Below are positions 1-64,000 of a DNA stretch of 64,000 nt, in pieces. The stretch comes from an uncultured virus (IMG/VR IMGVR_UViG_3300030376_003448). Its lineage: Duplodnaviria; Heunggongvirae; Uroviricota; Caudoviricetes. The position numbers and the translations under genes are program-made. Under the pieces are notes generated by a model. The model was given only the letters and a program-made list of their open reading frames with translations. It searched no databases and was not told where the DNA came from. Position 1 is the stretch's first letter. Every line of letters starts with the position of its first letter. The stretch lies in the IMG/VR virus record IMGVR_UViG_3300030376_003448; one strand, written 5' to 3'.

Positions 1-35
1 TCTTCGTATATCTGTTGTATCTCCTTTACTGCTTT

Positions 36-358
36 CATATTCTGTCCTCCTAATCTTTTTATTTAACTGTGTTGTTTTGTGTCACAAGCGTCATTTATAT
101 CCACTCTGAGAAAAATTTTGCCTCCCACAAAGTTTTATGGCTACTTATGAAAACGCCACCCACGAACAAACACCAATCCCAATCATGCCCTGTGGCATCA
201 TAACCGAAGCTATCAACCCCCACTATGCTTTCACTGATTATCATATATCCACCACTGATATATGCGCCCCTCCTCAATCTAGTCCAATGTTCTTCTTCTG
301 TCATATTATCTCCTCTTTTTCTTTTTATTTAACTCTATTTTTTTGTGTCGCAAGCGTC
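36..358 (-). promoter_or_regulatory. two copies of the early-cassette promoter module (core GACGCTTGYGACACA + GTTAAA TATA)
   Basis: TGTGTCACAAGCGTC at 78-92 and TGTGTCGCAAGCGTC at 344-358 on + strand; each is followed on the minus strand by GTTAAATA and an ATG about 28 nt after the TATA. Confidence 0.85.
95..304 (-). CDS. small hypothetical protein (early array cassette)
   Basis: 69 aa ORF bounded by copies of the conserved promoter module (344-358 upstream, 78-92 just past its stop). Confidence 0.75.
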   Translation of the reverse strand: MTEEEHWTRLRRGAYISGGYMIISESIVGVDSFGYDATGHDWDWCLFVGGVFISSHKTLWEAKFFSEWI

Positions 359-363: not shown

Positions 364-1005
364 CTATGCACACTTCCCACATATCACTCTAGGATATGCG
401 CTTGAGATATCCGACTTATGCACTTTTACGGCTTTGATAGCTGGAATTGAGGTTTTGCATCCAGAGCAAACGCCTTGAACGCCTCTAAGCATCGGGGCCA
501 CGATAGCGACCGCCATAGCTTGATTTATCCAATCAATATTGAGTCTTTTCTTGACCACTATCTGAGGCCCTAACGGTTTGAGATTTCGGCCCGCCTCCAT
601 GATTTTCTGGGTCTGGGATTTGGGCGCTCTGATTGGCGCTCGGCCGTCAATGTAGCGACCGTTGGATTCGCCGGTTCTGCGCTTTGAGTCGCCTTCTCCG
701 GCCTTCCCGCCCTTTTTGCCTCTAGTGGAGGCGATTGGGCATTTCTCGCCGTGTAGCTTGTGATTTCTACCCTTACAGGCTTTGTATCGGCATGGCTTCC
801 CGATAGTGATTTTTGGCACGATAACGGCCGTTTTTAGGTACTCGATTGGAACCCCTGCCAATCGGCACAATCTACGATACTGGGCCGTATGACCGCCTAA
901 TCTCCTTGAAGAATACTTGATGTGAGGAACGGCGTTCATTCCCTCTCGGTGAATCTTCATCTGGGCCTTGTGGTATGCTATCTTGGCATGTATTGTCTGC
1001 TTCAT
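364..1005 (-). CDS. basic hypothetical protein with Cys/His zinc-binding motifs
   Basis: 213 aa, K/R-rich; CRYKAC..H...C and C-terminal CSGC...CGKC; TATAAATA about 30 nt upstream. Confidence 0.65.
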   Translation of the reverse strand: MKQTIHAKIAYHKAQMKIHREGMNAVPHIKYSSRRLGGHTAQYRRLCRLAGVPIEYLKTAVIVPKITIGKPCRYKACKGRNHKLHGEKCPIASTRGKKGGKAGEGDSKRRTGESNGRYIDGRAPIRAPKSQTQKIMEAGRNLKPLGPQIVVKKRLNIDWINQAMAVAIVAPMLRGVQGVCSGCKTSIPAIKAVKVHKSDISSAYPRVICGKCA

Positions 1006-1132: not shown

Positions 1133-1632
1133 GAGATGAGATGTAGGTTATTAAACATTTTGTTTTCGCTTGCGTTGTGATTTTATCGGTGTAGGTAGAA
1201 ACACTTACTGTGTCTTTTACTATTTACTTTCTTTTTGGACAGTTACTTTACTTTACTTTACTTACTTTACTTTTTCACAGTTACTTTACTTTTTAACACT
1301 TATTTTACTTTTTCACATTAAGTGTTGTAAAACTCAGTCGGTGTTGTAAAACTTACTCGGTGTTGTAAAACTCACTTAGGTGCAAAAAACTCACTAGATG
1401 TTACCTAGACTACCTAAGTGCAAAAAGCGCACCGACACACCAAACCCCATACCAGATGAGATGGGGGTTATTAAACATTGTTAATTAACATATGATTGAT
1501 TGTCGCCGGGTTTCCGAAACCCATGTTGAGATGAGATGTAGGCTTATAGTCATTGTGATTAGTATACTTGAGTTATATCGCCGGATTCCCGCACCCGGCC
1601 CCGTGTCTGAGATGAGATGTAGGCTTATAGTC
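1133..1632. repeat. four dispersed 24-27 bp direct repeats (G)AGATGAGATGTAGG(T/CT)TAT...
   Basis: copies at 1133-1159, 1454-1479, 1528-1551, 1609-1632. Confidence 0.85.
1243..1375. repeat. TTTAC microsatellite followed by three 19-bp-period GTGTTGTAAAACT iteron-like repeats
   Basis: (TTTAC)n about 1243-1312; GTGTTGTAAAACT at 1322, 1341, 1360. Confidence 0.85.
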
Positions 1633-1648
1633 TTTCGCTAAAAATAGT

Positions 1649-50097: not shown

Positions 50098-50714
50098 TCC
50101 ACGACCTCGTAATCAACATCAATAGGTGTGGTTAGTAGGTTTAGTTTTCTCTCCACATCATCCAGTAGTTTAGGTTGGTCTGCTAAGGTTTCCACAAGAA
50201 TCCTACTGACATCACTGAGCTGATTGTTTACTAGCAGTAGTTGGGAATCTACACCTATCTCTTTTTTGAGCTGGCCTACTAGCTTGAGCGATGCGTTGGC
50301 CTGTGCTATCAACCTAGAGGCATCAGCTACAAACTCTGATGTGATACCTCCTTCTGCTTCCTTACGCTCCTCTAGCTCGTCCAAGTAATTTCTGATTCTA
50401 ATTACTATGTCCTCTGCTGAGTCTAGCGTGTTGATGGATTGGGAACGTGCTTGTTCCATGTGCATAGCTTCGGTAGGGTCATACTCCATGTGTGAATCCA
50501 TGTGGTTCATCACTGTCCCATCCGGCCAGTTATATTTAGCTTCAAGATAACTAGGTGATGCTTCGTCATTGAACACCTGCTTCTCCAATTCCTTTCTGTC
50601 TTTATGGTCGCACATCTCACAACCACCCGACAGAACCCATCTCAATACTTCTATGGCAAAGGCATCGTTCTCAGTGGCAAGCCTTCTCTGTATCTCTATC
50701 TTTGTCTTCATCAA
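50094..50714 (-). CDS. CxxC-H/H zinc-HTH protein with coiled coil (TerS-like architecture)
   Basis: CEMCDH...HMDSH then helical region. Confidence 0.6.
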   Translation of the reverse strand: MMKTKIEIQRRLATENDAFAIEVLRWVLSGGCEMCDHKDRKELEKQVFNDEASPSYLEAKYNWPDGTVMNHMDSHMEYDPTEAMHMEQARSQSINTLDSAEDIVIRIRNYLDELEERKEAEGGITSEFVADASRLIAQANASLKLVGQLKKEIGVDSQLLLVNNQLSDVSRILVETLADQPKLLDDVERKLNLLTTPIDVDYEVVE

Positions 50715-52033
50715 TTACCACCCCACATTATAGGCTCACTAGCTTCTGATACTGGACCGAACCTACAAATGACTCCCTTACGACCACGCCTTTTAACACT
50801 CGGTTCTACTTCGCTATACCAAGTCTGACCCTCTAGATTTTCTATCAACCATCGCTTTGCACTTTGGTAGTCACCCGCAGTTATCATACGACTAATCTCT
50901 TTTAGTAGTTGCGACTTGGGTACGTCCTTCATCCAGAAGGTGCTACGCATAAGCTCAAGGTCTGCATCCATTACTCTCCTTCTCTGAGCTAGAGATTGGT
51001 TGAGTATAGCCTCTAGCTTCTCATCTAGTTTTATGATTAAAGGTTCTCCTCCACGATAGGTAGGTTGCATCATGGCGTAGCCTATACACATTCTTCTGAA
51101 TAGGTCTGCCTCAAAGGAACGCACATCGGGTCTGTCTATCCACTCCATGATGCCGTCATCAAACAAGATACCCGTAGGTGGATTCCTAACGGCTTCGTGC
51201 ATTCTGTTTCTTATCCATTCTTTTATCTCAATATTAAGATTGGCAACGGCCACCCTCTCATCCTTCTGCATGTTGGCCTGTGCATGTTGGGCCAATTTAT
51301 ACTGCCTCTCTTTCTCTGGGGTCATCTCTATGTCTATGATGAAGAACCTTCGGTCTAGTCCAGAGTCAAGCTCAAACCTAGCGGGTTGTGTACCCGCCCA
51401 TACTGTGTATCGTGTGGTGTATCTAACCCATCCGTTACGCATGGCCTTCTGTACCCTGCCGTTGTCTAGGCTTGTGAGCAGTTGATTCTTCATGTCTAGG
51501 CTATGGTCCTTCTTAGACGCATCAGACATAGATGAGAATTCCTCAAAGCCGAGGAAGCCACCACACATCTCTCTAGCGATAGGTCGCCCTGCTATCTCAC
51601 CCTCATCATCTACGGAGCCAAACATACCTGCCTCTGTTATAGAGTTAGCACCCATCATCGTCCTCATACCCTGCCCTAAGTCGGCGTTGGAGTTGTAAAC
51701 AAGACCTGTTCCTTCTGCTAGGAACATGAGGATAAGAACAGACTTACCACTACCCTTAGCTCCTCTCATCAGTATGTGTATGCGTGTGTCTGGTAACTGT
51801 GACATGGGGGTGTAGAATGGTACGTTGTTGTGCCTCAGTGGACAGTTTTCTATGATGAAGTCATTCTCCTCATCTACTAACGGACTGTCGGGGTCGAAGT
51901 CACACCGGCTACATTTGTTTAGGGCATTGAATATGTGACCCCCGATACTACACAAGAAGATAGGTATTTTATCCTCGACATCAACGAAGTAGTTACGTCG
52001 TGCAAACTCAATAGTTTTATCGAAAATATTCAT
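50711..52033 (-). CDS. MCM-like AAA+ helicase/ATPase
   Basis: HILMRGAKGSGKS, TEAGMFGS, GGFLGFEEF, LDRRF arginine finger. Confidence 0.75.
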   Translation of the reverse strand: MNIFDKTIEFARRNYFVDVEDKIPIFLCSIGGHIFNALNKCSRCDFDPDSPLVDEENDFIIENCPLRHNNVPFYTPMSQLPDTRIHILMRGAKGSGKSVLILMFLAEGTGLVYNSNADLGQGMRTMMGANSITEAGMFGSVDDEGEIAGRPIAREMCGGFLGFEEFSSMSDASKKDHSLDMKNQLLTSLDNGRVQKAMRNGWVRYTTRYTVWAGTQPARFELDSGLDRRFFIIDIEMTPEKERQYKLAQHAQANMQKDERVAVANLNIEIKEWIRNRMHEAVRNPPTGILFDDGIMEWIDRPDVRSFEADLFRRMCIGYAMMQPTYRGGEPLIIKLDEKLEAILNQSLAQRRRVMDADLELMRSTFWMKDVPKSQLLKEISRMITAGDYQSAKRWLIENLEGQTWYSEVEPSVKRRGRKGVICRFGPVSEASEPIMWGGN

Positions 52034-52842: not shown

Positions 52843-53170
52843 CTAATCTCTCCTTTATCTTTTCTTGTAGGAACATGGGAAACTTCTTGATTGGTTTTCT
52901 TGAAGCTATTGCCCTACTTACTGCATCATCTAAAGGACGTGCATCCCATACCCCTAGTTTCTTTTCTTCTCCAATCTTCTCAAACAATACCGATGCCCTT
53001 AGTACGCAACCAAGAGATACGGGAGTAGTACCGTAGTTATACCCGAACCTGTTTGAGTAGCAATCAGAGTTGTACCAATCGCATATGTCCGTAGATGTCA
53101 TCGGGCCGTTCTCTTGTAGATACTCATAGACTTTTGATTGTAGTCTTTTGGTCTGCCCTCTACCACCCAT
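52835..53170 (-). CDS. winged-HTH protein
   Basis: VYEYLQENGPMTSTDI; start MGGRGQ 28 nt after TATA of a promoter module. Confidence 0.7.
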   Translation of the reverse strand: MGGRGQTKRLQSKVYEYLQENGPMTSTDICDWYNSDCYSNRFGYNYGTTPVSLGCVLRASVLFEKIGEEKKLGVWDARPLDDAVSRAIASRKPIKKFPMFLQEKIKERLDE

Positions 53171-53228
53171 ACCCTGTCCTCTCCTGTCACGGTTATAATT
53201 ATTTTTGTTACCTGTCACAAGCGTAAAA

Positions 53229-53370
53229 AATTAAAACGCTTTACTGCTCTCCATATTTTTATTTCTTTTATTTCTTCAAAGGTGTTTTAGAATTACTTTC
53301 TTCTTTACCTTAACACACTATTGAATTAATTGAAGAATTAGTAAATAGGCTTTCAGTGTCACGGTTTTTT
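53229..53370. repeat. AT-rich palindromic element, copy 2 (inverted relative to 5881-6054)
   Basis: AAACGCTTTACTGCTCT 53234-53250 and ATAGGCTTTCAGTGT 53345-53359 are exact reverse complements of boxes B and A of copy 1. Confidence 0.8.
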
Positions 53371-53401
53371 ATTTATGTGATATCGAAACCAACAAAAAGA
53401 A

Positions 53402-53602
53402 TTAGGAATCTATTTCTTTCTTTCTGTGATAAAAGTCATATTCATCTAACTGTAAAGTCATACCATTCTCACCACACTCGACTATATCAGATAGTACAAC
53501 GTCACCTTTCCATTCAAAGGCTACAATTACAGGCCAGTGTCCTTTACCTTCGTCCATCATTTTCTCGCATATTTCTTTAAGCTCGTCTATTGTCATCGTC
53601 AT
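53402..53602 (-). CDS. small hypothetical protein
   Basis: MTMTIDELKE..., starts just after upstream stop. Confidence 0.6.
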   Translation of the reverse strand: MTMTIDELKEICEKMMDEGKGHWPVIVAFEWKGDVVLSDIVECGENGMTLQLDEYDFYHRKKEIDS

Positions 53603-53603
53603 A

Positions 53604-54425
53604 TTAGTAACCCCGTAATGCCCACGTATAATATTCTTTCTGTAACTTAGTTTTATCGTGGAAATCATTTAACCTATCTGCGTTTATCATTTTCTTTTCA
53701 ATGCTTTCTGGTAACTTACTAAGCACATCTTGACTAAACTTATCTAAGCTAGAGTGAATTCCTTCAAGGACATCACCAAGCTCTCCCGCCTCTATTGTGT
53801 GAACCCACCCTACTACCCTGTGGTATTTCTCCACAAGCATAGTAGCACCGGTAGGTGTTTCTATCGTACCCCAAATGTAGGTATTGTTATTGACAGATAA
53901 TATATTTATCCTAAACTTATAGAGTCTTGTGTGTCTAAGAACATTATCTTTTGTGAAGCGCATATACGGGTACATTCTACCTTTGTAACTTATTCTAGGC
54001 AACCCATCCTTCTCGTAACCGCTTAGGTAATTAGCGTCTATGAAATCATATGTTGTTTGAAGATACTTACTACCGGTATCTGATGTGAGGATATTTATTA
54101 TCGAGCCTTCATCATGCCATACATCTATCTTCATCTTTGGTTGGCTATCTATGTAGCCTTGTAGGATTTCCTTTAGCGGTGGTCTGTGGGTTGGTAATAC
54201 ATCATAGATGGTCTGCATCATTTCTTTGTACTGTAATGTTGGGTCTATGCACTTCAAGAAAGCGAAAAGGATATGCCGGTCCTTTATCTCGTACTGTTTG
54301 TTGTGTTGTGATAGTAACACCATAGGGTGTTTTCTACCATTACTTTTAACCTTATTATACTCTCTAGCTTCTACAACCTTCAAGCCCTTAAGACTTAGCG
54401 ACTTGTATCTACTGCTCACTGGCAT
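53604..54425 (-). CDS. hypothetical protein
   Basis: 273 aa ORF. Confidence 0.7.
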   Translation of the reverse strand: MPVSSRYKSLSLKGLKVVEAREYNKVKSNGRKHPMVLLSQHNKQYEIKDRHILFAFLKCIDPTLQYKEMMQTIYDVLPTHRPPLKEILQGYIDSQPKMKIDVWHDEGSIINILTSDTGSKYLQTTYDFIDANYLSGYEKDGLPRISYKGRMYPYMRFTKDNVLRHTRLYKFRINILSVNNNTYIWGTIETPTGATMLVEKYHRVVGWVHTIEAGELGDVLEGIHSSLDKFSQDVLSKLPESIEKKMINADRLNDFHDKTKLQKEYYTWALRGY

Positions 54426-54663
54426 CTCTCCACTGTTTGTTTTTTGCTTTCACTCTGTTAGCTTTGCTCATGGTAGTCTTGAATTCCTTTACCATGTACT
54501 GAGGAGTCTTCTGCTTGAAGGAGCCTATACTCATCCACTTGGTACAGTCTTCTACTAACTGCCTAAGCTCATTGACTTCTTTGTTATTGGTATATGGGAA
54601 TACCTCGTTGGCTTTCTCAGCCTCCTTTTTTTTATCCTCAAGATAATCCGTGTACTTCCTCAT
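54409..54663 (-). CDS. hypothetical protein
   Basis: 84 aa, ATGA overlap. Confidence 0.6.
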   Translation of the reverse strand: MRKYTDYLEDKKKEAEKANEVFPYTNNKEVNELRQLVEDCTKWMSIGSFKQKTPQYMVKEFKTTMSKANRVKAKNKQWRDASEQ

Positions 54664-54929
54664 ATCTCCGCACCTTCTTCATCGTAGTAGTATCTGTTTA
54701 CCTTGTATGTTGTAGTACCAAACTGACTTAGTGTATCGCTTAACTGCTCTCTGACATTACCCTTCCTTATACCCTTCATACCTCTAATCAGATTACTGAT
54801 ATGCCTAGCATTACTGATGTACTTTTTCCTCTTGGGGTTCATCCTCTCTAGAATCTGGTCTGCCGTAAGACCGTCTGGATTCGCCTTGAGTGTCCTTATT
54901 ATCTCGTTTCTAACTCCCTGCTTTCTCAT
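54660..54929 (-). CDS. winged-HTH protein
   Basis: IIRTLKANPDGLTADQILE; start 28 nt after TATA of promoter module. Confidence 0.7.
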   Translation of the reverse strand: MRKQGVRNEIIRTLKANPDGLTADQILERMNPKRKKYISNARHISNLIRGMKGIRKGNVREQLSDTLSQFGTTTYKVNRYYYDEEGAEI

Positions 54930-54963
54930 AAAATCCCCACTCTTTTTGTATGTATAAGTATTT

Positions 54964-55263
54964 CTATTCTGATTCGCAAGCGTCGTCTGGATGCACACCA
55001 TATTTTGCTTCGTGTGCGTTGTTTATTATATCTATTAAGTCTTGGTCCTTGATAGCTTTATTAGCTATGTTCACATCGTTTATCAAACGCTGAACATAGA
55101 CACTAGCATCTAGTAGCTCCTCTTGGAGATGCACTAACCACTCTGTAATGTTAAGGTCTTCTCTTTCCATAGTAACTCCGTACTTGGTTTTACCAACCTT
55201 AGCTCTATGCCTTATTTTCCATATTACTTTTTCCTCAATACTACTCAATCTTACCACGTCCAT
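54964..55263 (-). CDS. all-alpha NTP pyrophosphohydrolase (MazG-like) family protein
   Basis: R..VG..KYG.TM.R.DL...WL.HLQEELLDA.VY. Confidence 0.65.
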   Translation of the reverse strand: MDVVRLSSIEEKVIWKIRHRAKVGKTKYGVTMEREDLNITEWLVHLQEELLDASVYVQRLINDVNIANKAIKDQDLIDIINNAHEAKYGVHPDDACESE

Positions 55264-55591
55264 TGTTGTAATTCTCATAATGCTTATCGTAATCCTTTTG
55301 ACTACAAGTAAAAAGGTACGAACCATTTGGAGAAGTCTTATGCTTCTTGAACATCTTGTTCCTACATAACTTAGCTAGGAATGAGTGATAGTGTATAGTG
55401 CCTCTTTTATTACGGTAAAGGTTCCCATTTTTGTAGGTCATATTCTCAAAGATATTTAGAGCGGTGCATGGTTTATCTTGTTCTATCAACCAACGACCCG
55501 CACACTCAAAGGCTCTAGCGAACCGTGTCTTTCTGGCATTGATACCGTTCAGCTCTTTCATCTGTTCCACCTGTCCCGCCAACAACCGCAC
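55241..55591 (-). CDS. hypothetical protein (likely start MKELNG near 55561)
   Basis: ORF track; wHTH-like pattern. Confidence 0.55.
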   Translation of the reverse strand: MRLLAGQVEQMKELNGINARKTRFARAFECAGRWLIEQDKPCTALNIFENMTYKNGNLYRNKRGTIHYHSFLAKLCRNKMFKKHKTSPNGSYLFTCSQKDYDKHYENYNNGRGKIE

Positions 55592-55629
55592 TGTCTATCG
55601 TTGTGATGCCCACACAATAAACACTTCAT

Positions 55630-55782
55630 TTATCTAGCCTCCACATCTGGAATCCAGTCGCCGTTCTGGTACTCGTCGTAGCAACAATCGCACACGACAT
55701 CACCCCACTCGTTGAAGAAGTAGATGGTAGTACCTTCCCCATCTTCAATGGCGTTATCACAATCCTCTAGCTCACAAATCAT
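55630..55782 (-). CDS. 50 aa acidic zinc-finger protein
   Basis: CELEDC...CDCC; ATGA overlap. Confidence 0.55.
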   Translation of the reverse strand: MICELEDCDNAIEDGEGTTIYFFNEWGDVVCDCCYDEYQNGDWIPDVEAR

Positions 55783-55919
55783 TCTTCCTCATCTTCCCAC
55801 TTCTCTACAAGACCAACGTACTTCTCTCCATCAGGAAAGTACACAGTGATATACAGATGACCCTTCTTGTGGTAGTCATCCACTGTGACTGTTGGCTCAT
55901 TCTCTGTGTTAATTGCCAT
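55779..55919 (-). CDS. 46 aa acidic protein
   Basis: MAINTENEPT...; AGGAGG SD and promoter module upstream. Confidence 0.6.
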   Translation of the reverse strand: MAINTENEPTVTVDDYHKKGHLYITVYFPDGEKYVGLVEKWEDEEE

Positions 55920-56122
55920 ATCTATGCCTCCTAGTCTTTTCTCTTAACTGTTGTCCTGTGTATCGCAAGCGTACATATTATTTTCTTCTAACAATCTGTA
56001 ATCAGCTTCGCTCAATCTCTTGTCTACCTGTGTCTTTCTCCAACGACCTAGTACGCCGTTGTTTACTCCTCTTACATTCTTTCCCTTGTTGTATCTTCTT
56101 CTCATTCTTTTTCCTGTGCTAC

Positions 56123-56646
56123 TCATTGTATCATCTCCATCGGCCACCAATCGGGGGCATCTCTACCCTTCTTCCACTGGGCGAATCTACTTTTATCGTG
56201 AATGTAGTAGTCACGATATGCGGTGACGGCACACTCGTTTTTGTAATCATCGGGCATGGCCTGTGCAAATGGCGTTAGCTCTCCTTCNNNNNNNNNNCTT
56301 CTGGTATCAAGTGCGCCATGATGTATAGATGCTCTATACCCTTCTCGCATGAATGAACCTTGTCGAATCTCTTGGTATACTCGTCGCATAGCATAGCACC
56401 GTGGTAACAAGCCCATAGGAAGTTAGACCTAGAATCACCCACCCAACGGGTACAGGGGTGATTGTGGTAGCCACCACGTAGCGGTGTGCCTTTACTTGTT
56501 AGTGGCATCATGTCGGGTGTAGCACCGTGACGGATGACGGCGGAGCCTAACTGTTGGTAAAGCTCCACGACCATCTTAGGAACGTGCTTGTCACAGTACA
56601 TCTTTGCTGACTGTATCGGGTCTTCATCTAGTATGAATATGTTCAC
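56123..56646 (-). CDS. pyrimidine dimer DNA glycosylase / endonuclease V-like protein (interrupted by an N gap)
   Basis: MNIFILD.DP..SA...CDKHV.KM..E..Q.L, HNHPCTRW, AQAMPD.YK, AYR.YY..K. Confidence 0.8.
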
Positions 56647-56915
56647 TGTATCTCCTCCAAATAATCTCGTAGGTATAGTCCTCGTCTTACAGGCTTCTCT
56701 AGTGCCGGGTCTTTATCAAGTTTGGGTTCCGATGTCGCAAGCGTGAGTATTAACTTTTTGTTATAGATTTTTTCGTAGTTTGCGAAGCACGTCGGACACT
56801 CTGGTAGCTTTGCGTACTCGGCATCGGTGACGTACTCACCGGACTCTGGTACAGGCGTACCACAGAGCCTATCATGATGTCCTAATGAGATATGCTTCAT
56901 CATTCTAAGTCCCAC
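56643..56915 (-). CDS. small zinc-binding hypothetical protein
   Basis: H...LCG...CPTC. Confidence 0.55.
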   Translation of the reverse strand: MGLRMMKHISLGHHDRLCGTPVPESGEYVTDAEYAKLPECPTCFANYEKIYNKKLILTLATSEPKLDKDPALEKPVRRGLYLRDYLEEIQ

Positions 56916-56958
56916 TCCTCAAAGACCCACTCGTCTGTTTCAATCCTTACTACTAGCT

Positions 56959-57192
56959 TCATGCTTCTTTCTCCTTGTAATCTGGATGCTCCTCTGGTAG
57001 TAAGTGCCTTCTTCGCTCCATCATATTGACAAGCAGTTTCGTCAGTTTCTTAGCTCCCTTGTCGAATCTTTCCTCCGCTTTGTTTTTTCTTGGACCTACT
57101 ACCATAGTTTCTTTTACGATAGATATATCTATGTCATCAAGGATATGTTGTAGTATCTCGTACTCAACATGGGGTATTGTTTGGCATCTCAT
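56959..57192 (-). CDS. hypothetical protein
   Basis: 77 aa, ATGA overlap. Confidence 0.6.
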   Translation of the reverse strand: MRCQTIPHVEYEILQHILDDIDISIVKETMVVGPRKNKAEERFDKGAKKLTKLLVNMMERRRHLLPEEHPDYKEKEA

Positions 57193-57356
57193 TCCTCATC
57201 ATCTCCGTGGTCCCAAAGGATTCGCTGACACAATGCGAGTATCAATGTTCGGTATTGTGCTTCGATATCTGATAGGTCATCATCGTCCCAATTCTCGTAG
57301 CAATCAAGAAGGTCGCCGTATGTATTCTCAAATCTGCAATAACTCATATTACTCAT
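57189..57356 (-). CDS. small acidic phage protein (MSNMSYCRFENT family)
   Basis: recognisable NMSYCRFENT..DL.DC motif. Confidence 0.6.
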   Translation of the reverse strand: MSNMSYCRFENTYGDLLDCYENWDDDDLSDIEAQYRTLILALCQRILWDHGDDEE

Positions 57357-57789
57357 GGCAACCACACTCCCCTGCCTTGTGCATGTTGTATGGCATACCG
57401 TGGTTGCACACATCATAGACCCCGGCTTTCTTCCTATACTCATGAGCTTTCTCTGATATTCTCCATGCCCTAGCCTGTCTTCTCCTCTGTGGCTCGACAA
57501 TGAATTCTTGTTCTAGGCTTTCAACGTAGTCTGAAAACTCCTCCTCTGTGATTGTTGATGTAGTCCAATCATACCTGTTCTTCTTAACATTCCAACCCGG
57601 TGTTTCTGGTCCATCCATAGATGAACCCATCTCAAGCAACCACTCATACAGATTCATGTGTCTGTGGTCACTTGGGTATGAGTTACTGTCATCCATGTAA
57701 CTGACAAACCAGCTTAGGTAGTCGGCCTCCCTCTCAATATTCGTTCTTACCCTCATGGGGTTCTTCTCCTGTGTCGCTTTTTGCTCCAT
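57349..57789 (-). CDS. hypothetical protein
   Basis: 146 aa, starts 28 nt after TATA of promoter module. Confidence 0.7.
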   Translation of the reverse strand: MEQKATQEKNPMRVRTNIEREADYLSWFVSYMDDSNSYPSDHRHMNLYEWLLEMGSSMDGPETPGWNVKKNRYDWTTSTITEEEFSDYVESLEQEFIVEPQRRRQARAWRISEKAHEYRKKAGVYDVCNHGMPYNMHKAGECGCHE

Positions 57790-57967
57790 GATACTCCATC
57801 GAAGCCGTACCTTTAACTGTTCCGTTCTGTGTCACAAGCGTCACCATTCGACTTGTGACCCGACGACGGGGGTAAGTTACTATTACCGTTATTCTTCTTC
57901 TGACCTTATCCAAAATCTCTTTCCACATACTCGACACCTTGACTCCCCGACTACTCTAGGGCATACC

Positions 57968-58093
57968 TTACAATCTGACATAGCCGTTGCCTCTACAATA
58001 GTCACAAGCATCTTGTTCCTTTTCACCTGTCATAGCCGTGTAGTGTATTGTGAAACCTCGGCCTCGACAAGCTGAACAAGTTACTTTTACCAT
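57968..58093 (-). CDS. 41 aa DnaJ-type zinc-finger protein
   Basis: CSACRGRG...CDYCRGNG. Confidence 0.65.
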   Translation of the reverse strand: MVKVTCSACRGRGFTIHYTAMTGEKEQDACDYCRGNGYVRL

Positions 58094-58101
58094 AGTATTA
58101 C

Positions 58102-58302
58102 CTACTGTGGGATAACTCCATCCTCTCGTAACTGGTCGTAGTTATCCATCCATGATTTTAGTACCTTATGGGCCGTCTTTCTGTCTAGGTCACAATGCTC
58201 TACTAGGTAGGGCGTAGCACCAAACATGTTGGTTGCTCCCGACTGCCTTAGCACCTCAAGGAAGATGTAGTGTTCTCTCCACTCTGGATTGTAAGGCATC
58301 AT
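58102..58302 (-). CDS. small conserved phage protein (LR.SG.TNMFGA motif)
   Basis: FLEVLRQSGATNMFGATPYL. Confidence 0.7.
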   Translation of the reverse strand: MMPYNPEWREHYIFLEVLRQSGATNMFGATPYLVEHCDLDRKTAHKVLKSWMDNYDQLREDGVIPQ

Positions 58303-58493
58303 ATCATCTCCATCATGTAGAGCATATCTTGTATCTTATCAGTTTCTTTTGTGGTAAATATAGTACCCGAGGACATGTGTATGTCATACGCCCATCTGTC
58401 TTCCGAAGGTATCTCGTACTGAACAATGCCACATATCTTACTTACATTTATCATAGTAGTACCGGCATTTGTCGTTAGCTTGATGTAAGTCAT
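58299..58493 (-). CDS. small hypothetical protein
   Basis: 64 aa beta-rich, coupled to neighbours. Confidence 0.6.
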   Translation of the reverse strand: MTYIKLTTNAGTTMINVSKICGIVQYEIPSEDRWAYDIHMSSGTIFTTKETDKIQDMLYMMEMI

Positions 58494-58853
58494 CTACTCG
58501 CCCCCCTTCTCAATAAAATCAATACAAGTTATGGCGTGGGTCAATGCCTCTATCCAACCTTGATTGATGTAATCACCATTTTCATCGTGATTCTCATAAT
58601 CGCCTATGGCTTCTTCGCAATCCTCTAATGTATCTTTTAGCTGAAGCCTTAGACTCTGCATGGGAGTCATGGCGGGCTTTGGTGTGCCTACCTCACTAAT
58701 CATGTCCCAGTTTCTTTCTAGGTCACGCTCTGTGAACATGTCATAGGCATCTGCGTACCAAAAGTTAGTACCACAGTCGCTAATATCCATTCTCTCAATC
58801 GTTATCTCTCTGTTGTTGTGTTTGTTTCTGTATGTTCCGTACATGTTTCTCAC
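58494..58853 (-). CDS. hypothetical protein
   Basis: 119 aa, downstream of promoter module at 58895. Confidence 0.65.
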   Translation of the reverse strand: MRNMYGTYRNKHNNREITIERMDISDCGTNFWYADAYDMFTERDLERNWDMISEVGTPKPAMTPMQSLRLQLKDTLEDCEEAIGDYENHDENGDYINQGWIEALTHAITCIDFIEKGGE

Positions 58854-58915
58854 TTATCCTTTCCTCATATCCTTTACTTTTAACCTTGTTGTTCTGTGTC
58901 GCAAGCGTAATCTAC

Positions 58916-59311
58916 CTACATACACCCCGCCCAAAAATCAGCTTCGTACTCATCTGTTTCTCTGTTCCAGTGCATTAGGTATAGCTCACACGGCCATGAG
59001 TGACCCCACACCTGTAAGAAGGCGACTAAGCAGGGTGATAGACCTGTGACGTATAGGTTTACCCTGTTGGGTATTTCCCTATCATGTTCCTCTTTTATGA
59101 AGCCCATGTTCTTCTCTAACCACTCATCTACTACCCGCTCGTTACCACTAAAGTCCAACGGGTTCTCCACTACCTGCGGGAACACCGAGTCAGTCACGTC
59201 CGGTATCGGATGTCTAGAATCGCACAAGGCGACGTTATGCATCCTGTATTCTCTCATCATTCCATCATCTTCCTCAAAACCATATAGGTATATCTCGTCC
59301 ATTGTTGTCAT
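58916..59311 (-). CDS. hypothetical protein
   Basis: SRH.IP, VNLYVTGLS..L, LMHWNRET..Y motif seen in phage early genes. Confidence 0.7.
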   Translation of the reverse strand: MTTMDEIYLYGFEEDDGMMREYRMHNVALCDSRHPIPDVTDSVFPQVVENPLDFSGNERVVDEWLEKNMGFIKEEHDREIPNRVNLYVTGLSPCLVAFLQVWGHSWPCELYLMHWNRETDEYEADFWAGCM

Positions 59312-59342
59312 CTCCTAAGTTATTTTTACTGTAATTGTTGGT

Positions 59343-59394
59343 GGGGTAGCCGGACGAAAATGAAAAGCAAACAAGAAGGAATGCCGACTACCCC
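59343..59394 (-). terminator. 11 bp stem with 30 nt U-rich loop after the DUF932 gene
   Basis: minus strand GGGGTAGTCGG...CCGGCTACCCC (one G-U pair). Confidence 0.45.
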
Positions 59395-59407
59395 GATAAG
59401 TTTCTAT

Positions 59408-60394
59408 CTAAGCCACTATGCGGGCTACTGCCTCCCTCCAAGCTCTGTCCTTGGTTCTCATGCCGGTCCCTAGTAGGGCCGACTCGACTCTCTTTTCATT
59501 GACCTTCTCACCCTTTCGGTCATAGACCCATGCGTGGTCTAGGTACTCGGTCACGGTGTTGAATGACTGCCATGCCGTACCTGCCATGCCTCCGGTCGTG
59601 TTATTCTCGGTCTTCTCAAGCTCTAGGAGTCTGTCAAGCGTGTTGTTTCCTCTGGTGGTAAGACCTAGAGGGTTGTCCGTCTTGTGTATCAGCTCCTCGT
59701 CTGACTTGAGGCCCATGGCGTCAATGTAGTATTGAATCCTATCACCTATCTCCATCTCTACTTCCATGAGCTTCGACGCTTGTGAAGCAAAGTGGTGATT
59801 CAAGTGGTCGGTGATTTTTAGTGCCTCTATTGCTTGGTTGATTCTCTCATCAATTCTTGATGAGTGACGGCATGAGAGGCTTCTGGGGTTGATGCCCGCA
59901 TCCCTCATCATGCTCTCTAGGTATGCGAATTGGTTGGTGCATTGCACTCTCTGGTTTGAGGGTATGAACCTAACACCCGAAGAACCATCGTGTGACCATA
60001 TGCCGTATATGTATTGGTCTATGTCATCCATCCCGGCAATCGTGAATCCTTCGGGCATTATCATACTAACATAGCCCTTTCTGCCTCCGTCAATCATGCC
60101 TATGCGGTCATACTCAACCCTGCCTTCGCCCACTAAGCGGTCAAAGACCTTTAGCACATCGTTGTTTTGATATACTTTGTAGGTACTGCCCACGTTACCG
60201 AGGGGTTGTCCTGTGTCGTCCCTGTATGTAACACTGTGGCCCTTGTGGTGTATGAAATCCCCTCGGTGGTTCATGTACCCCGCCGGGGCTTTCTGGACTG
60301 TGAAGTCCAGCCCCGCATTTGCGAGGACTTCTTCTGCCGTCGTTCCTTCTGCCTGTTGCCCTAGTAGGGCGTATGCCGGTAATCTACCTGTCAT
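59408..60394 (-). CDS. DUF932-family phage/plasmid protein
   Basis: AGLDFTV, LG.VG..Y..YQN, SHDGS, RVQCTNQ, RHS, GTAWQ.FN.VTEYLDH. Confidence 0.85.
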   Translation of the reverse strand: MTGRLPAYALLGQQAEGTTAEEVLANAGLDFTVQKAPAGYMNHRGDFIHHKGHSVTYRDDTGQPLGNVGSTYKVYQNNDVLKVFDRLVGEGRVEYDRIGMIDGGRKGYVSMIMPEGFTIAGMDDIDQYIYGIWSHDGSSGVRFIPSNQRVQCTNQFAYLESMMRDAGINPRSLSCRHSSRIDERINQAIEALKITDHLNHHFASQASKLMEVEMEIGDRIQYYIDAMGLKSDEELIHKTDNPLGLTTRGNNTLDRLLELEKTENNTTGGMAGTAWQSFNTVTEYLDHAWVYDRKGEKVNEKRVESALLGTGMRTKDRAWREAVARIVA

Positions 60395-60476
60395 ATTATC
60401 TCCTCTCCTTCATTCCTTTTAACTCTACTGCTTTGTGTCACAAGCGTCCTTAACAATTCTTCTTCCTTTATTCTAC

Positions 60477-60692
60477 TCATGATAATACCTCGACATCATC
60501 CTCATCCTCTCCGCCCACTGTTTCCCAATGGACGAACACCGGTGGATTGCCCGTAAAGGAGCAGGTGATTCTCTCGGCTTCCGCCAATCCGGTGACGTAG
60601 CCCACGCCTTCGACGTGATACACTCCGATAACCTCTGTATCGTAATCATCGTGCATCTCCCTCCATCTTCTCAATTGTAGCTCACTGTGCAT
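60477..60692 (-). CDS. small acidic hypothetical protein
   Basis: 71 aa, AGGAGG SD. Confidence 0.55.
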   Translation of the reverse strand: MHSELQLRRWREMHDDYDTEVIGVYHVEGVGYVTGLAEAERITCSFTGNPPVFVHWETVGGEDEDDVEVLS

Positions 60693-60694
60693 TT

Positions 60695-60955
60695 CTAATC
60701 CTCCTTTAGTAAGTCCAAAGACTTTGGGGGGCTAAGGTCGAGGGCGTACATCTTCAACCCATCTCTAGGGGCAACCAATCCATTCTCCATTAGGTAGTCC
60801 CATGAGAATGAACCGAGTATCTCCTCTATGAGCTGGACTTTTGTCATGTACCCCAACCCAGAGAGCTGATACTCTGTGTCCGTCATCGGGACACCGTTCC
60901 TCTTTACTTGGCGGTCTAGTGCTTTCCTTTCATACATCGGCTTGTTCTGCTTCAT
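60695..60955 (-). CDS. hypothetical protein
   Basis: first gene after promoter module at 60995. Confidence 0.7.
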   Translation of the reverse strand: MKQNKPMYERKALDRQVKRNGVPMTDTEYQLSGLGYMTKVQLIEEILGSFSWDYLMENGLVAPRDGLKMYALDLSPPKSLDLLKED

Positions 60956-61010
60956 ATTCCTTCCTCTCCTTCATTACTTAAGAACCCGTCGTTCTGTGTC
61001 ACAAGCGTCA

Positions 61011-61388
61011 TTACTCCTCATCCCACTCGGATTCTACCTTTCTGAATCTTGGCATCCTATCGTATACTAACTCAAGTAGTACCCGGTGCGATTCAGCATC
61101 TCCGTCAAAGCATTCCATACTCTCTCCGGTCTGCCATCTGGTTAGATAGGTTAAACACAATCGCTTGATTTCTTTTGCCGTAATTCTAGAGGGGTGGTAT
61201 GTGTTATGCTCCCAATCCCATATCCTTTGAATGGCTTCCGACCTACTGTGAGTATCGTTGATGTTTAGGACGTACCCTAATATCATGGCAACATCTTCAA
61301 CATCTACTGTTTCCGGCTCCGGTCTTATTGTCATCCTGACCTGCCCGTTCTTCCTCATGGCTATTGTGCCGTGTCTGCCCACACTCAT
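61011..61388 (-). CDS. hypothetical protein
   Basis: 125 aa, AGGAGG SD, stop abuts next module. Confidence 0.7.
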   Translation of the reverse strand: MSVGRHGTIAMRKNGQVRMTIRPEPETVDVEDVAMILGYVLNINDTHSRSEAIQRIWDWEHNTYHPSRITAKEIKRLCLTYLTRWQTGESMECFDGDAESHRVLLELVYDRMPRFRKVESEWDEE

Positions 61389-61389
61389 C

Positions 61390-61524
61390 CTAATTCCTCC
61401 TATCTACGGTGTTCATCCACGCTTGTATTACCTTTACCACAAACGCCCCTTCGTCTATCTCGCCGTTGTCATATTCGTCTATCAATCTCCAAACATACTG
61501 TTTTACATCTGTCATCGTTGTCAT
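61390..61524 (-). CDS. 44 aa hypothetical protein
   Basis: MTTMTDVKQYVWRL..., downstream of module at 61576. Confidence 0.5.
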   Translation of the reverse strand: MTTMTDVKQYVWRLIDEYDNGEIDEGAFVVKVIQAWMNTVDRRN

Positions 61525-61592
61525 CTCCTTGTTCTTATCCTGTCCTTTCTTTCATTCCTTTTAACTCTGTTGAATTGTGTCGCAAGCGTCGT

Positions 61593-61778
61593 CTATGCCT
61601 CCCCAAACCTCGCTTTAGCTTCGGCTTCGGCCTCGACCCTAGTGTGGCCCCATGCGTAATTATCCTCGTTGTACCCCATCATCAACCACTCAATCAAATC
61701 ATCCTTTGATGTGCCAATCTTGTAAGGCTCATCCGGCTGGTATCTATACACGACCCACATAGGCCATCCCTTCTTCAT
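61593..61778 (-). CDS. small hypothetical protein
   Basis: 61 aa, stop abuts module. Confidence 0.6.
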   Translation of the reverse strand: MKKGWPMWVVYRYQPDEPYKIGTSKDDLIEWLMMGYNEDNYAWGHTRVEAEAEAKARFGEA

Positions 61779-62114
61779 CTACGCCACCTCCTCTTTGACA
61801 GTGTGATAAGCTGACATTGATGCGGGCCAATTTGTGTGCCTCACGTATGAGTCAATGTCCTGACCTCTCCATAGGTCATATGCGTCCCTTTGAGCGTACC
61901 CATCTCTTGATTCCTCGGCCTTTTCGTACATCAGCTCAATGATTCTTTCGCAGTGTTCTGCGATGAATCTAAGCTCGTTGGCTTTGTGGGATAGCTGGTC
62001 ATTCTGTATTGCCATAATTTGCCAATGTCTTTTGGATAGCATCTTTCTGTTTTCGATGCGCTCCCTCATCTTAGCGTTCTTTGTCGGGCTTGTTGTCTGG
62101 TTTCCTTCTTCCAT
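61779..62114 (-). CDS. hypothetical protein
   Basis: first gene after module at 62154. Confidence 0.7.
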   Translation of the reverse strand: MEEGNQTTSPTKNAKMRERIENRKMLSKRHWQIMAIQNDQLSHKANELRFIAEHCERIIELMYEKAEESRDGYAQRDAYDLWRGQDIDSYVRHTNWPASMSAYHTVKEEVA

Positions 62115-62138
62115 ATTGTGTCCTCTCCTTCGTTGTAT

Positions 62139-62381
62139 TTAACTGCTCTCATTTGTGTCACAAGCGTCATCGGCTATGCCGTGATAATCGCTACCTATAC
62201 CGAACAGGCTTTCCATGTGTTCCCAATCTCTTAACTGCCTCGCCTCCATGTAATCCTCCATTAAGATAATCTCATTATCCCCATCAAGGAACAGGCTTTT
62301 GCCATCGGTCCATTGTATCACTGTGTATAACCTCTTAGGGCCGTTTTCAATTTCGTATGTTGCTTCATCGTAATCTTTCAT
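62139..62381 (-). CDS. acidic hypothetical protein
   Basis: after module at 62421; reads through the next module. Confidence 0.65.
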   Translation of the reverse strand: MKDYDEATYEIENGPKRLYTVIQWTDGKSLFLDGDNEIILMEDYMEARQLRDWEHMESLFGIGSDYHGIADDACDTNESS

Positions 62382-62439
62382 ATTCTATCCTCCTTATCTT
62401 TTTATTTAAGTCTGTCTTTTTGTGTCACAAGCGTTGTTC

Positions 62440-62784
62440 TTACTCCTCCTCAGAGTTTGGTCCGGTGGGCCAATAATCTCCATCGTCCTCCTCATCGGCG
62501 GGCCAATCTTCACCATAGACACAGTAGTCTTGATTAAACATAGCTTGAAGGCTTGAGATAAGCGTCTTGACCTGCTTGGGTGTGAGGAATGCGTGAACGT
62601 GGTCGTTACCTGCGTTTATGCCTATGAAAGCCATGTGTGGGCGATAGCACCCCCTCTTTAGGTATAGCTCGCCACGGCCATTGAACACCGGGTCGTGCAT
62701 GGGTTTCTCGTCGGCTACCTGCCTTCGCCAATTGTATAGGGCCACCTTTACATCGGCATCCTCAATGAATTCTGTACCCATCAA
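62440..62784 (-). CDS. hypothetical protein
   Basis: 114 aa, acidic tail. Confidence 0.65.
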   Translation of the reverse strand: MMGTEFIEDADVKVALYNWRRQVADEKPMHDPVFNGRGELYLKRGCYRPHMAFIGINAGNDHVHAFLTPKQVKTLISSLQAMFNQDYCVYGEDWPADEEDDGDYWPTGPNSEEE

Positions 62785-62945
62785 TTCAGCCCCCTTGAAA
62801 CCCAGACTTCATCAATCAATGCCTTAGTATCAGCATCCCCTAACTGATACACCTTATTCAGCACTCTCTTGTATACAATCAATTCTTGTAATCTGGTTAC
62901 AATCAATTCTAATTCTTCTTTCGTGTTTGCTTCTTTGTTGCTCAT
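62781..62945 (-). CDS. 54 aa hypothetical protein
   Basis: MSNKEANTKEELEL..., first gene after module at 62985. Confidence 0.65.
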   Translation of the reverse strand: MSNKEANTKEELELIVTRLQELIVYKRVLNKVYQLGDADTKALIDEVWVSRGLN

Positions 62946-63007
62946 ATTGTGTCCTCTCCTTCATTCTATTTAACTGCTCTTATCTGTGTCACAAGCGTCG
63001 TTCTCTC

Positions 63008-63328
63008 CTACCAATCCCTAATTATGATTGTTGAATCCTCTGTGCGTCCGTTCCAATTGTACCCACCCGCTTCAATGACGATGGTGTAGAGGTCGATATC
63101 CTCGTCCTCATCAAGCCCGTAGGCTTTACGTACTTCGTCCTCGTCGGCGTACTCTGTATACTCGCAACAGATGGCGATGACATCAAGCTCAAGCTCAATG
63201 CCCCATTCTTCTTCAAGCTCTGTTAGGTACTCATACAGGGCTATTCTTCCGGGGCGGGTGAAGTTATCCTCTCGGTTCATATTCACAAATGCGTCTACAA
63301 ATGTTTGTTCGGTTACTGTCTGTTTCAT
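63008..63328 (-). CDS. highly acidic conserved phage early protein
   Basis: F.DAF...R..NF...G..ALY.YL...E....ELDVIAICCEY.EY. Confidence 0.75.
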   Translation of the reverse strand: MKQTVTEQTFVDAFVNMNREDNFTRPGRIALYEYLTELEEEWGIELELDVIAICCEYTEYADEDEVRKAYGLDEDEDIDLYTIVIEAGGYNWNGRTEDSTIIIRDW

Positions 63329-63627
63329 ATTGTGTCCTCTCCTTCATTTCTTTTAACTCTGTTGTTCTGTGTCACAAGCGTCATCTACTTCTTACTCCAC
63401 GTCCTCTTGAGCCTCTCTGCTCTAAACTGTTCGTCCTTGATTTCCCTCTTTAGATATTGGCCAATCTTTCTCGCAAATTCTGTGTTTGTGCTTCTTCTTG
63501 AATANNNNNNNNNNTTCACAAATGCGTCTACAAATGTTTGTTCGGTTACTGTCTGTTTCATATTGTGTCCTCTCCTTCATTTCTTTTAACTGTGTTGTTT
63601 TGTGTCACAAGCGTCATTTATACTCCT

Positions 63628-63816
63628 TCAAAAATACTCATCCTTCAATGCCTCTAAAGCGCATGAACGGCAATATCTATTTCCGGCGTACATTCCATCA
63701 AGCTGGATATAGAGTCTTACTGCCTCTTTTCCGCAACCCATACAACACTCGGTCATAAATAGCTCCAAATCCATAGCTTTTTTTAGGCTCATCTTCTTTC
63801 TTGTTTCTTGGTTCAT
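63628..63816 (-). CDS. small zinc-finger protein
   Basis: CMGC...CRSC; single-gene cassette between modules. Confidence 0.7.
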   Translation of the reverse strand: MNQETRKKMSLKKAMDLELFMTECCMGCGKEAVRLYIQLDGMYAGNRYCRSCALEALKDEYF

Positions 63817-63872
63817 ATTGTGTCCTCTCCTTCTTTTTATTTAACTCTGTTGTTCTGTGTCACAAGCGTCAT

Positions 63873-64000
63873 CTACTTTTTGCTCCACGGATGTGTGCCG
63901 TTCTCAACCTTCCTCTTGAGCCTCTCTACTCTAAATTGTTCGTCCTTGATTTCCCTCTTTAGATATTGGCCAATCTTTCTCGCAAATTCTGTGTTTGTGC
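63873..64000 (-). CDS. 3' end of a cassette gene (partial), near-duplicate of 63385-63504
   Basis: ...TEFARKIGQYLKREIKDEQFRVERLKRKVENGTHPWSKK stop. Confidence 0.55.
   Translation of the reverse strand, partial: TNTEFARKIGQYLKREIKDEQFRVERLKRKVENGTHPWSKK

What the first reader, a model, noticed from the sequence alone, without database searches (positions are those of the whole stretch)
53168..64000. Repeat-delimited gene-cassette array: small genes or short gene groups each carry the same 45-55 bp promoter module
Seen: 15 copies here plus 2 at 78-92 and 344-358 of a minus-strand module [upstream stop]-GACGCTTG(T/C)GACACA-N10-GTTAAA(A/T)-...-AGGAGAGGACACAAT-ATG. The core contains the palindrome TGTG-N-CACA, the TATA-like hexamer begins about 28 nt before the ATG, and the module often starts 1-6 nt after the previous stop, so units are self-contained cassettes of one to a few unrelated small genes. 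Copies are best conserved near the window ends and decay toward the replication block (53213, 54974, 55963). Known: archaeal TATA boxes lie about 26-28 nt upstream of the start site, and activators bind just upstream of BRE/TATA. Inference: a regulon under one dimeric factor whose repeats also act as homology for cassette gain, loss and shuffling, an integron-like accessory array with no integrase. The Sak4-like ATPase and Cas4-like exonuclease are candidate recombination enzymes; the wHTH genes at 52835 and 54660, both under the module, are candidate regulators.
Basis: partly seen in the sequence, partly recalled or inferred. Interest (0 to 1): 0.88.

Follow-up and report, generated by a model that had tools for sequence, protein, structure and literature searches.

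The report
Box-tagged promoter array, marine archaeal virus
A marine archaeal virus puts the same short DNA tag plus promoter in front of its small accessory genes, swaps and reorders some of those genes by recombination between the repeats, and probably controls them all with one previously unrecognised zinc-binding protein whose presence and sequence track the tag across related viruses.

Summary
The repeat is real: 17 minus-strand copies (one a scaffolding duplicate) versus 0.12 expected, in a magrovirus-like genome. The conserved element is not TGTG-N-CACA (1 of 98 copies) but ACGCTTGYGA, about 25 nt before a TATA lying 28-29 nt from the ATG (63 of 83): a leaderless archaeal promoter with an upstream box. 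Relatives show cassette loss, insertion and reordering with chimeric modules switching at different sub-sites: homologous, PeSL-like, not integron-like. Breakpoints are not significantly enriched at modules overall (20 of 36, p=0.11). Proximal copies are conserved, not decayed. New: the array's first gene (364-1005, Cys/His-rich, no known family) tracks the box. All 4 of 17 near-complete genomes with this box array carry it; divergent homologues come with variant boxes; one nested relative lacking it lost the box at 7 of 7 orthologous promoters but kept TATA. The wHTH-like genes do not track the box. Similar regulons are in print for crenarchaeal and haloarchaeal viruses, and this scan noted similar arrays in other archaeal viruses. 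New variant of a known kind.

The parts
364..1005 (-). Lead gene of the array (w3), 213 aa, basic, three to four Cys/His clusters; candidate box-binding regulator; own promoter has a TATA-like hexamer about 30 nt upstream but no box
   Evidence: no Pfam/PHROG/PDB match (10, 11, 71, 102)
304..357 (-). Module 1 (box, TATA, ATG at 304); heads 69-aa gene absent in L020
38..91 (-). Module 2; its gene runs across the window ends into 64000-63874
63816..63869 (-). Module 3; heads 62-aa gene 63816-63628, absent in L020
63561..63614 (-). Module 4, haplotype with gene 63816-63628 (as in L028)
63505..63514 (.). 10-N scaffold gap joining two haplotypes; 63385-63504 repeats 63874-64000
63328..63381 (-). 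Module 4, haplotype without that gene (as in L020); chimera of modules 3 and 4 with switch at offsets 23-30
63008..63328 (-). Gene w8 (phrog_9974, unknown function); its cassette sits at different positions in relatives
62945..62998 (-). Module heading 62945-62781 and 62781-62440
62381..62434 (-). Module heading the gene starting at 62381; cassette absent in L013, L024; skipped by a contig joint in two runs
62114..62167 (-). Module heading 62114-61779 and 61778-61593
61536..61589 (-). Module with no ATG at offset 54: short leader with its own SD-like site follows
60955..61008 (-). Module; L027 carries an extra module-headed gene inserted here
60394..60447 (-). Module heading DUF932 gene 60394-59408
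58855..58908 (-). Module heading 58853-57889 gene group
57788..57841 (-). Proximal module, 53 of 54 identical in five relatives
56691..56744 (-). Proximal module inside the 3' part of the upstream ORF, ahead of the pyrimidine-dimer glycosylase gene (56646-56123, split by N gap 56288-56297)
55919..55972 (-). Proximal module; the gene after its ATG is replaced or lost in relatives and varies within runs
54930..54983 (-). Proximal module heading w36 (54929-54660, weak HTH hints)
53171..53224 (-). Last module, heading w40 (53170-52835, DUF3860-like) and the co-oriented replication block down to 36643
1165..1174 (-). Centre-inverted box variant (ACGC-AA-GCGA) upstream of the lead gene; L019 has the standard box at the matching place

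Best explanation
The window is a near-complete, circularly permuted magrovirus-like genome. Each module is an archaeal promoter: an upstream box (ACGCTTGYGA-NRCA, about -54 to -41), a purine-rich BRE region, a TATA at about -30 to -23, and a start site on or next to the ATG, so most mRNAs are leaderless; the SD-like stretch lies upstream of that start and could only serve read-through transcripts (anatomy shown, transcription inferred). The box is the binding site of a virus-encoded factor, most likely the Cys/His-rich product of the array's first gene (364-1005), made first from a plain TATA promoter and then acting on the 16 boxed promoters, including the one heading the replication block (co-variation shown, binding inferred; activator rather than repressor about 60:40, from the box lying upstream of BRE). 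Because selection keeps many similar 55-bp modules in tandem, ordinary homologous recombination between them deletes, inserts, moves and homogenises the distal cassettes (outcomes shown, enzymes unknown). Shuffling is a by-product of the regulon, as with T4 PeSLs, and does not explain the proximal gene turnover.
For: Virus type: PolB, GroEL-type chaperonin, clamp loader, ERCC4, TerL; this gene set matches passages on magroviruses in PMC5434244. Promoter: TATA-to-ATG 28-29 nt in 63 of 83 non-redundant modules with a scored TATA; in the 9 without that ATG a pyrimidine-purine step peaks at 28 (6 of 9); the same spacing recurs with other boxes; no sigma-70 excess (17 vs 21.6). Regulator: homologues in all 4 of 17 near-complete genomes with 7 or more same-strand copies (G001, G002, G011, G023); divergent homologues with variant boxes ACGCTTAAG (L174, L179, L181) and GCTTGCGTGG (G012, G013); distant Cys-rich lead genes with AACTCACGAT, AACTCACCAA, AACTGCGT. 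G005 nests inside box carriers in two trees (100/100 DUF932 clade of 7; 100/99 sister of G010), lacks the gene and lacks the box at 7 of 7 recognisable orthologues of the 10 L144 sites while flanks and mostly TATA persist. Recombination: L020 vs L028/window, 99% identical, differ by two whole cassettes with joints inside modules; 11 hybrid-type modules (about 9 independent) switch at offsets -3..14 (7), 23..30 (1), 36..56 (3); w8 cassette out of order in 6 of 12 relatives; distal modules closer to their own genome's consensus (44-52 of 54) than most are to orthologues, T at offset 7 in 11 of 17 window copies vs 0 of 12, 0 of 10, 1 of 12 in three relatives; contig joints and loose ends at modules in public runs.
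Against: No transcript, binding or structural evidence: the lead protein has no Pfam, PHROG, PDB or fold match. The loss test rests on one genome (84% complete). Kin share both gene and box, and host lineage could co-vary with both; host genomes could not be searched. Boxes ACCTTACG (G016, G029) and TAGTCGCA (L138, L139, L141) have no detected homologue of this gene; similarity of the box-B lead gene is one 24-column finger (probability 72%) and that of the box-C gene is architecture only. G014 lacks the gene yet has 6 scattered same-strand hits to the loose pattern (control 2; none in its array region). The G009 promoter of w40 lacks the box although the gene is present. Novel adjacencies with a module: 20 of 36 vs 15 of 34 reference junctions, p=0.11; junctions broken 13 of 15 vs 11 of 19, p=0.13; within-run variants also lie away from modules (56235-56493). 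All relatives are metagenome assemblies and could be misjoined at repeats.
Confidence: 0.62

Rival explanations
1. The box is read by a host transcription factor; box type follows the host lineage, and the lead gene co-varies only through shared ancestry or host shifts.
For: Host Sta1 is implicated in viral transcription (passage of PMC5569661); HF2 repeats work as promoters without viral factors (PMC8707807). Box types are clustered on the trees. Some boxes have no detected lead homologue.
Against: Box sequence changes step with lead-protein divergence (three related boxes with three related proteins); G005 lost gene and box together while staying close to box carriers; the full-module scan of metagenome contigs returned almost only virus-like arrays, though it was too strict to exclude a looser host motif.
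Confidence: 0.2
2. Same regulon, but the lead protein is a repressor that shuts strong early (possibly anti-defence) promoters down, like Aca8 proposed for rudiviruses.
For: Most archaeal virus regulators are repressors (PMC5569661 passage); repression through virus-specific consensus sequences is proposed in PMC11065993 (passages); G005 persists without gene and box and keeps its TATA boxes; boxes also lie upstream of the lead gene in several relatives.
Against: The box ends about 10 nt upstream of the TATA at a fixed distance (offset 25-26 in 65 of 83) and fixed orientation, not over TATA or the start site, which fits recruitment of TBP/TFB as by Ptr2 or TFB-RF1. This rival shares most of the best explanation and differs only in sign.
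Confidence: 0.3
3. Integron-like system: the box is a site-specific recombination core acted on by an unrecognised recombinase (possibly the lead protein).
For: 7 of 11 switch windows include the box; cassettes change order.
Against: 4 of 11 switch elsewhere in the module; the box is simply the longest shared stretch; no integrase among 71 scanned ORFs; boxes persist at fixed promoters with no rearrangement; strict spacing to TATA; no module hairpin (10 of 11 with z above -1.6).
Confidence: 0.05
4. The order differences are assembly artefacts at 55-bp repeats.
For: The window itself glues two haplotypes at an N gap; run data are contigs only, joints with 30-letter sides.
Against: The same orders recur in separate contigs (L013 and L037; L030 and L035; w8 before w14 in L019, L024, L031); modules at novel joints have lineage-specific sequences rather than copies of window modules; distal modules share a median perfect run of only 17 nt.
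Confidence: 0.08

Closest known systems
Virus-specific consensus regulatory sequences heading early/anti-defence genes of crenarchaeal viruses (Bhoobalan-Chitty et al. 2024, PMC11065993; abstract and 12 passages seen)
   Same: Small unrelated genes near a genome end share one regulatory sequence around BRE/TATA; the sequence differs between viruses, and lineage-specific regulators (Aca8, SMV2 gp37) are proposed.
   Different: There the regulators are proposed repressors under the same motif; here the candidate is a Cys/His-rich protein at the head of the array, the box lies upstream of BRE, and it also heads the replication block. The main text has no occurrence of magrovirus, Poseidoniales or recombination. 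Anti-defence function is untested here.
PeSL cassettes of T4-type phages (Arbiol 2010, PMC2839356, 12 passages; Comeau 2014, PMC4122927, abstract)
   Same: Repeated promoter modules in hyperplastic regions; homologous crossovers at varying positions inside the module; ORFan gain, loss, replacement; the integron comparison is already made there.
   Different: PeSLs are sigma-70 promoters with a terminator stem-loop and form mini-circles; these are archaeal promoters with an upstream box, no hairpin, and circles were not seen.
Class I intergenic repeats of halovirus HF2 (PMC8707807; introduction, results 3.2-3.7 and discussion read)
   Same: 56-58 bp repeats with TATA and an upstream conserved motif, early-middle genes, proven promoters; viral CxxC proteins are speculated as regulators.
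   Different: Seven dispersed copies at conserved positions, no shuffling reported; upstream motif mutations did not change reporter activity; no regulator identified; unrelated sequence.
HGTV-1 upstream motif (as reviewed in PMC3950731, passage; the original PMC3737338 is not held)
   Same: Archaeal tailed virus with a conserved TATA-containing motif before most ORFs of one arm; regulation and PeSL-like shuffling were suggested.
   Different: Contains an inverted repeat; shuffling was suggested, not shown by comparison.
T4 MotA box / P2 Ogr-type activators (search listings; Ogr named as activator in passages; mechanisms recalled)
   Same: A phage-encoded factor recognises a private upstream box to switch on a promoter class.
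   Different: Bacterial RNA polymerase, unrelated proteins; only a functional analogy.

Membership tests
Integron | Tyrosine integrase (IntI) beside the array | tested here: not met
   No integrase or recombinase family among 71 ORFs in PHROGs and Pfam; several large ORFs stay unassigned
Integron | Fixed crossover point in a folded attC-type site | tested here: not met
   Switch windows at offsets -3..14, 23..30, 36..56; no module hairpin
Integron | Mostly promoterless cassettes read from one promoter | tested here: not met
   Each unit has its own box and TATA
PeSL (T4-type) | Sigma-70 early promoter | tested here: not met
   17 sites vs 21.6 in shuffles; archaeal TATA instead
PeSL (T4-type) | Terminator stem-loop in the module | tested here: not met
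   10 of 11 modules fold no better than shuffles; one (298-388) z -3.2 with a different pairing
PeSL (T4-type) | Indels and replacements by crossover inside the module | tested here: met
   distal third only, overall enrichment p=0.11
PeSL (T4-type) | Excised mini-circles | not testable with these tools
   Only contigs available; the one backward joint (64000 to 62375) is explained by the module at 38-91 lying outside the laid stretch
Archaeal virus consensus regulatory sequences (PMC11065993) | Shared sequence around a BRE/TATA core upstream of small genes in one genome | tested here: met
Archaeal virus consensus regulatory sequences (PMC11065993) | Virus-specific sequence outside the core | tested here: met
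   At least eight box types in relatives
Archaeal virus consensus regulatory sequences (PMC11065993) | Early expression and anti-defence function of the genes | not testable with these tools
   No isolate or RNA data; named genes are DUF932, a pyrimidine-dimer glycosylase, phrog_9974
HF2 class I intergenic repeats | Alpha/beta/gamma motifs of haloferacalesviruses | tested here: inconclusive
   Motifs quoted in PMC8707807 differ from this module by eye; no alignment was run
Magroviruses | Archaeal-type replication block, chaperonin, nuclease beside TerL | tested here: met
   no named magrovirus record in the phage collection, so host is inferred

The most novel reading that the evidence does not exclude
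Magroviruses share a genome-level switch not yet described in archaeal viruses: the first gene encodes a new family of multi-zinc-finger transcription activators whose specificity co-evolves with a private upstream box, turning on both the accessory array and the replication block (an archaeal counterpart of MotA-type middle activation), with at least eight protein-box pairs in nature and a natural null mutant; the boxes double as recombination linkers that let cassettes move.
Probability: 0.35. Interest if true: 0.75.

Novelty: new variant of a known kind. Interest (0 to 1): 0.56.

Why it matters
Viruses of Marine Group II archaea are uncultured and their gene regulation is undescribed in the papers I could search. 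The box gives a way to list co-regulated accessory genes (candidate anti-defence or host-takeover genes) in any magrovirus genome, supplies comparative evidence that promoter-repeat shuffling, suggested earlier for a halovirus, really happens in an archaeal virus, and nominates a testable protein-DNA pair: a small protein family (31 representatives at 50% identity) without known fold, with natural specificity variants. Described archaeal virus regulators are mostly repressors (PMC5569661), so a dedicated activator would be notable.

Tried and rejected
TGTG-N-CACA palindrome: rejected. Decay toward the replication block: rejected. Sigma-70 promoters and intrinsic terminators: at or below shuffle level. 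Structured RNA: no Rfam match. wHTH-like genes as the cognate factor: homologues in box-B, box-C and box-less viruses; PDB hints E 0.05-1 only. Gene 61388-61011 as regulator: missing from box carriers G002 and G009 regions, no family. Sak4 assignment of 43252-44202: no match. Folds of the lead protein (pTM 0.30, 0.43): no match with E up to 0.001, VIA best Z 7.7 on the N-terminal helical hairpin only; the VIA job on the second model never finished; Atlas hits under 0.9. Host motif search: no Poseidoniales genome handle obtained. Expression: no RNA holder listed, which is no evidence either way. HSP-end counting (16 of 67 in modules covering 13% of the array) mixes divergence, N gaps and masking edges and was not used as a test; head/tail clustering merged A-rich heads and was used only for its sequence table. 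In one search I dropped eight tiny or uncertain ORF calls, merged five families by shared 5' ends, used 12 of the fetched close contigs (some redundant, e.g. L030/L035), and the module at 56744 was not counted as a junction module. ACACTAGTGT in G005 is not a replacement box (also in box carriers L142, L143, L146). Pattern hits L007, L008, L010, L012, L016 were left out as unrelated singletons. Literature: 'magrovirus + repeat + promoter' 0 papers; 'Poseidoniales + virus + intergenic + motif' 1 unrelated listing; term searches in PMC5434244, PMC11706807, PMC10160649 found no promoter or repeat description; supplements were not read and most subscription papers are not held.

Full report
1. Setting. 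The window encodes TerL, portal, tail tube and tape measure on one arm and PolB, a GroEL-type chaperonin, clamp loader, ERCC4 and a PD-(D/E)XK nuclease on the other, matching passages on magroviruses (PMC5434244). No named close record exists in the phage collection, so a Poseidoniales host is inferred. Relatives align across positions 1 and 64000: the genome is circularly permuted, and the array runs from the lead gene at 1005-364 through 1/64000 down to 53170.

2. Observation. The 10-mer ACGCTTGYGA occurs 17 times on the minus strand, all in the array, against 0.12 expected. Two copies (63614, 63381) flank an N gap and represent two haplotypes found separately as L028 and L020; one genome has 16. 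Proximal copies are distinct but conserved: 48-53 of 54 identical to orthologues versus 23-30 of 54 to the genome consensus.

3. Promoter anatomy. Of 154 non-redundant box sites, 83 have a scored TATA, 65 of them at offset 25-26; 63 of 83 have an ATG 28-29 nt after the TATA start, and in the 9 without it a pyrimidine-purine step peaks at 28. By established archaeal spacing, and the -26 TATA start measured for HF2 (PMC8707807), the start site falls on or just before the ATG. Transcripts are therefore predicted leaderless; the SD-like stretch seen in 82 of 105 ATG-bearing modules lies upstream of that start and would serve read-through RNA. There is no sigma-70 excess, hairpin or Rfam match. Transcription itself is not shown.

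4. Shuffling. L020 and L028/window are 99% identical yet differ by two whole cassettes whose joints lie inside modules; the L020 modules are clean chimeras switching at offsets -1..7 and 23..30. In 85-93% relatives the w8 cassette is out of order in 6 of 12 contigs, and L027 has an extra module-headed gene at 61008. Eleven hybrid-type modules (about nine independent) switch at three different sub-regions, as PeSL crossovers do (PMC2839356). Distal modules are homogenised within the genome, and a C-to-T change at offset 7 is shared by 11 of 17 window copies versus 0 of 12, 0 of 10 and 1 of 12 in three relatives; gene conversion is likely, parallel mutation or selection is not excluded. Contigs of four public runs show joints at 62168/62461 and 63622/63813 and lead-gene ends joined to two module types (short sides, one run may be the window's source). 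Against: modules mark 20 of 36 novel adjacencies versus 15 of 34 reference junctions (p=0.11); distal 14 of 17, proximal 6 of 19; one backward join lacks a module. The region is hypervariable throughout, and modules explain the distal rearrangements only. No integrase was found.

5. The box across the group. It is present in viruses with TerL down to 68% identity. Others use the same layout with other boxes: ACGCTTAAG, GCTTGCGTGG, AACTCACGAT, AACTCACCAA, AACTGCGT, CACACTCTTASTG, ACCTTACG, TAGTCGCA. In several near-complete genomes no repeated box was found in the 10 kb examined.

6. Candidate factor. The lead gene is basic with conserved Cys/His clusters, a small family (58 and 31 hits) without Pfam, PDB or fold match. 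Of 17 genomes at least 90% complete, the 4 with this box array all carry it; of the other 13, two carry clear homologues and the related box GCTTGCGTGG, three carry distant homologues with other boxes, eight have none detected. A divergent subfamily sits directly before ACGCTTAAG arrays in three contigs. G005 lies inside box carriers in both marker trees, lacks the gene, has no box within one mismatch where its sister has 10, and at the 7 recognisable orthologous sites keeps flanks and mostly TATA but not the box. This is one genome, 84% complete, but the TerL-to-DUF932 stretch is continuous in it. Counter-cases: boxes without a detected homologue (G016, G029, TAGTCGCA group), G014's scattered loose hits, one unboxed w40 promoter in G009.

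7. Mechanism. Shown: repeat, spacing, chimeric modules, reordering, gene-box co-variation. Inferred: lead gene read first from a plain TATA promoter, its product binds the boxes and modulates 16 promoters including the one ahead of the replication block; recombination between modules is a by-product. Overall 0.62 for a viral lead-protein regulon plus homologous shuffling; sign about 60:40 for activation; host factor 0.2; site-specific system 0.05.

8. Known systems. Closest are the virus-specific regulatory sequences of crenarchaeal viruses with proposed cognate regulators (PMC11065993, passages), HF2 class I repeats, the HGTV-1 motif (review passage) and PeSLs. It works like a PeSL array but fails PeSL membership (no sigma-70 promoter, no stem-loop) and integron membership. 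I found no description in magroviruses (supplements unread). This scan noted similar arrays in other archaeal viruses, none by sequence; the short notes shown do not mention a co-varying lead gene.

9. Verdict. Real and well supported as a repeated promoter with partial shuffling; concept known; the protein-box co-variation with a natural loss is the new, testable part. Interest 0.56.

Noticed in passing
window 1060-2500: Non-coding stretch before the lead gene with tandem repeats (1224-1402) and four TATA-like plus CATCTCATCT motifs near 1620, 1545, 1475, 1155; in several relatives these carry the box. Possible genome end, origin or immediate-early promoter cluster.
   Followed up: partly
window 56288-56297: Second N gap splits the pyrimidine-dimer glycosylase gene; runs show indels and alternative sequence around 56235-56493.
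   Followed up: partly
window 59330-59400: GC-rich stem with a U-rich loop after DUF932 (z -1.65); possible terminator or processing site.
   Followed up: no
window 55777-55903: The gene after module 55972 is replaced by other sequence within the same runs and in relatives.
   Followed up: partly
L138, L139, L141: Box TAGTCGCA clade: leadered promoters, a 436-482 aa gene at the head of the array, and genes resembling ArdA anti-restriction proteins (resemblance recalled, not tested).
   Followed up: no
L126 (G007): Box CACACTCTTASTG modules are leadered, with the SD-like site after the predicted start.
   Followed up: partly
L127, L140, L142, L143, L146: Repeated palindrome ACACTAGTGT followed by ATCCAAATCC in a long non-coding region upstream of the array.
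   Followed up: no
L124 (G004): Twelve GGTTACAAAAG repeats upstream of the array, no promoter box found.
   Followed up: no
L130, L006: Second paralogue of the DUF3860-like gene w40 inside the array.
   Followed up: no
L019 2213-2766: Second copy of a w10-like gene behind a w12-like start: duplication inside the array.
   Followed up: no
window 50711-52033: MCM-like ATPase motifs by eye without database match; 73-90% conserved in relatives.
   Followed up: no
window 14637-19859: 1740-aa collagen-repeat tail fibre.
   Followed up: no
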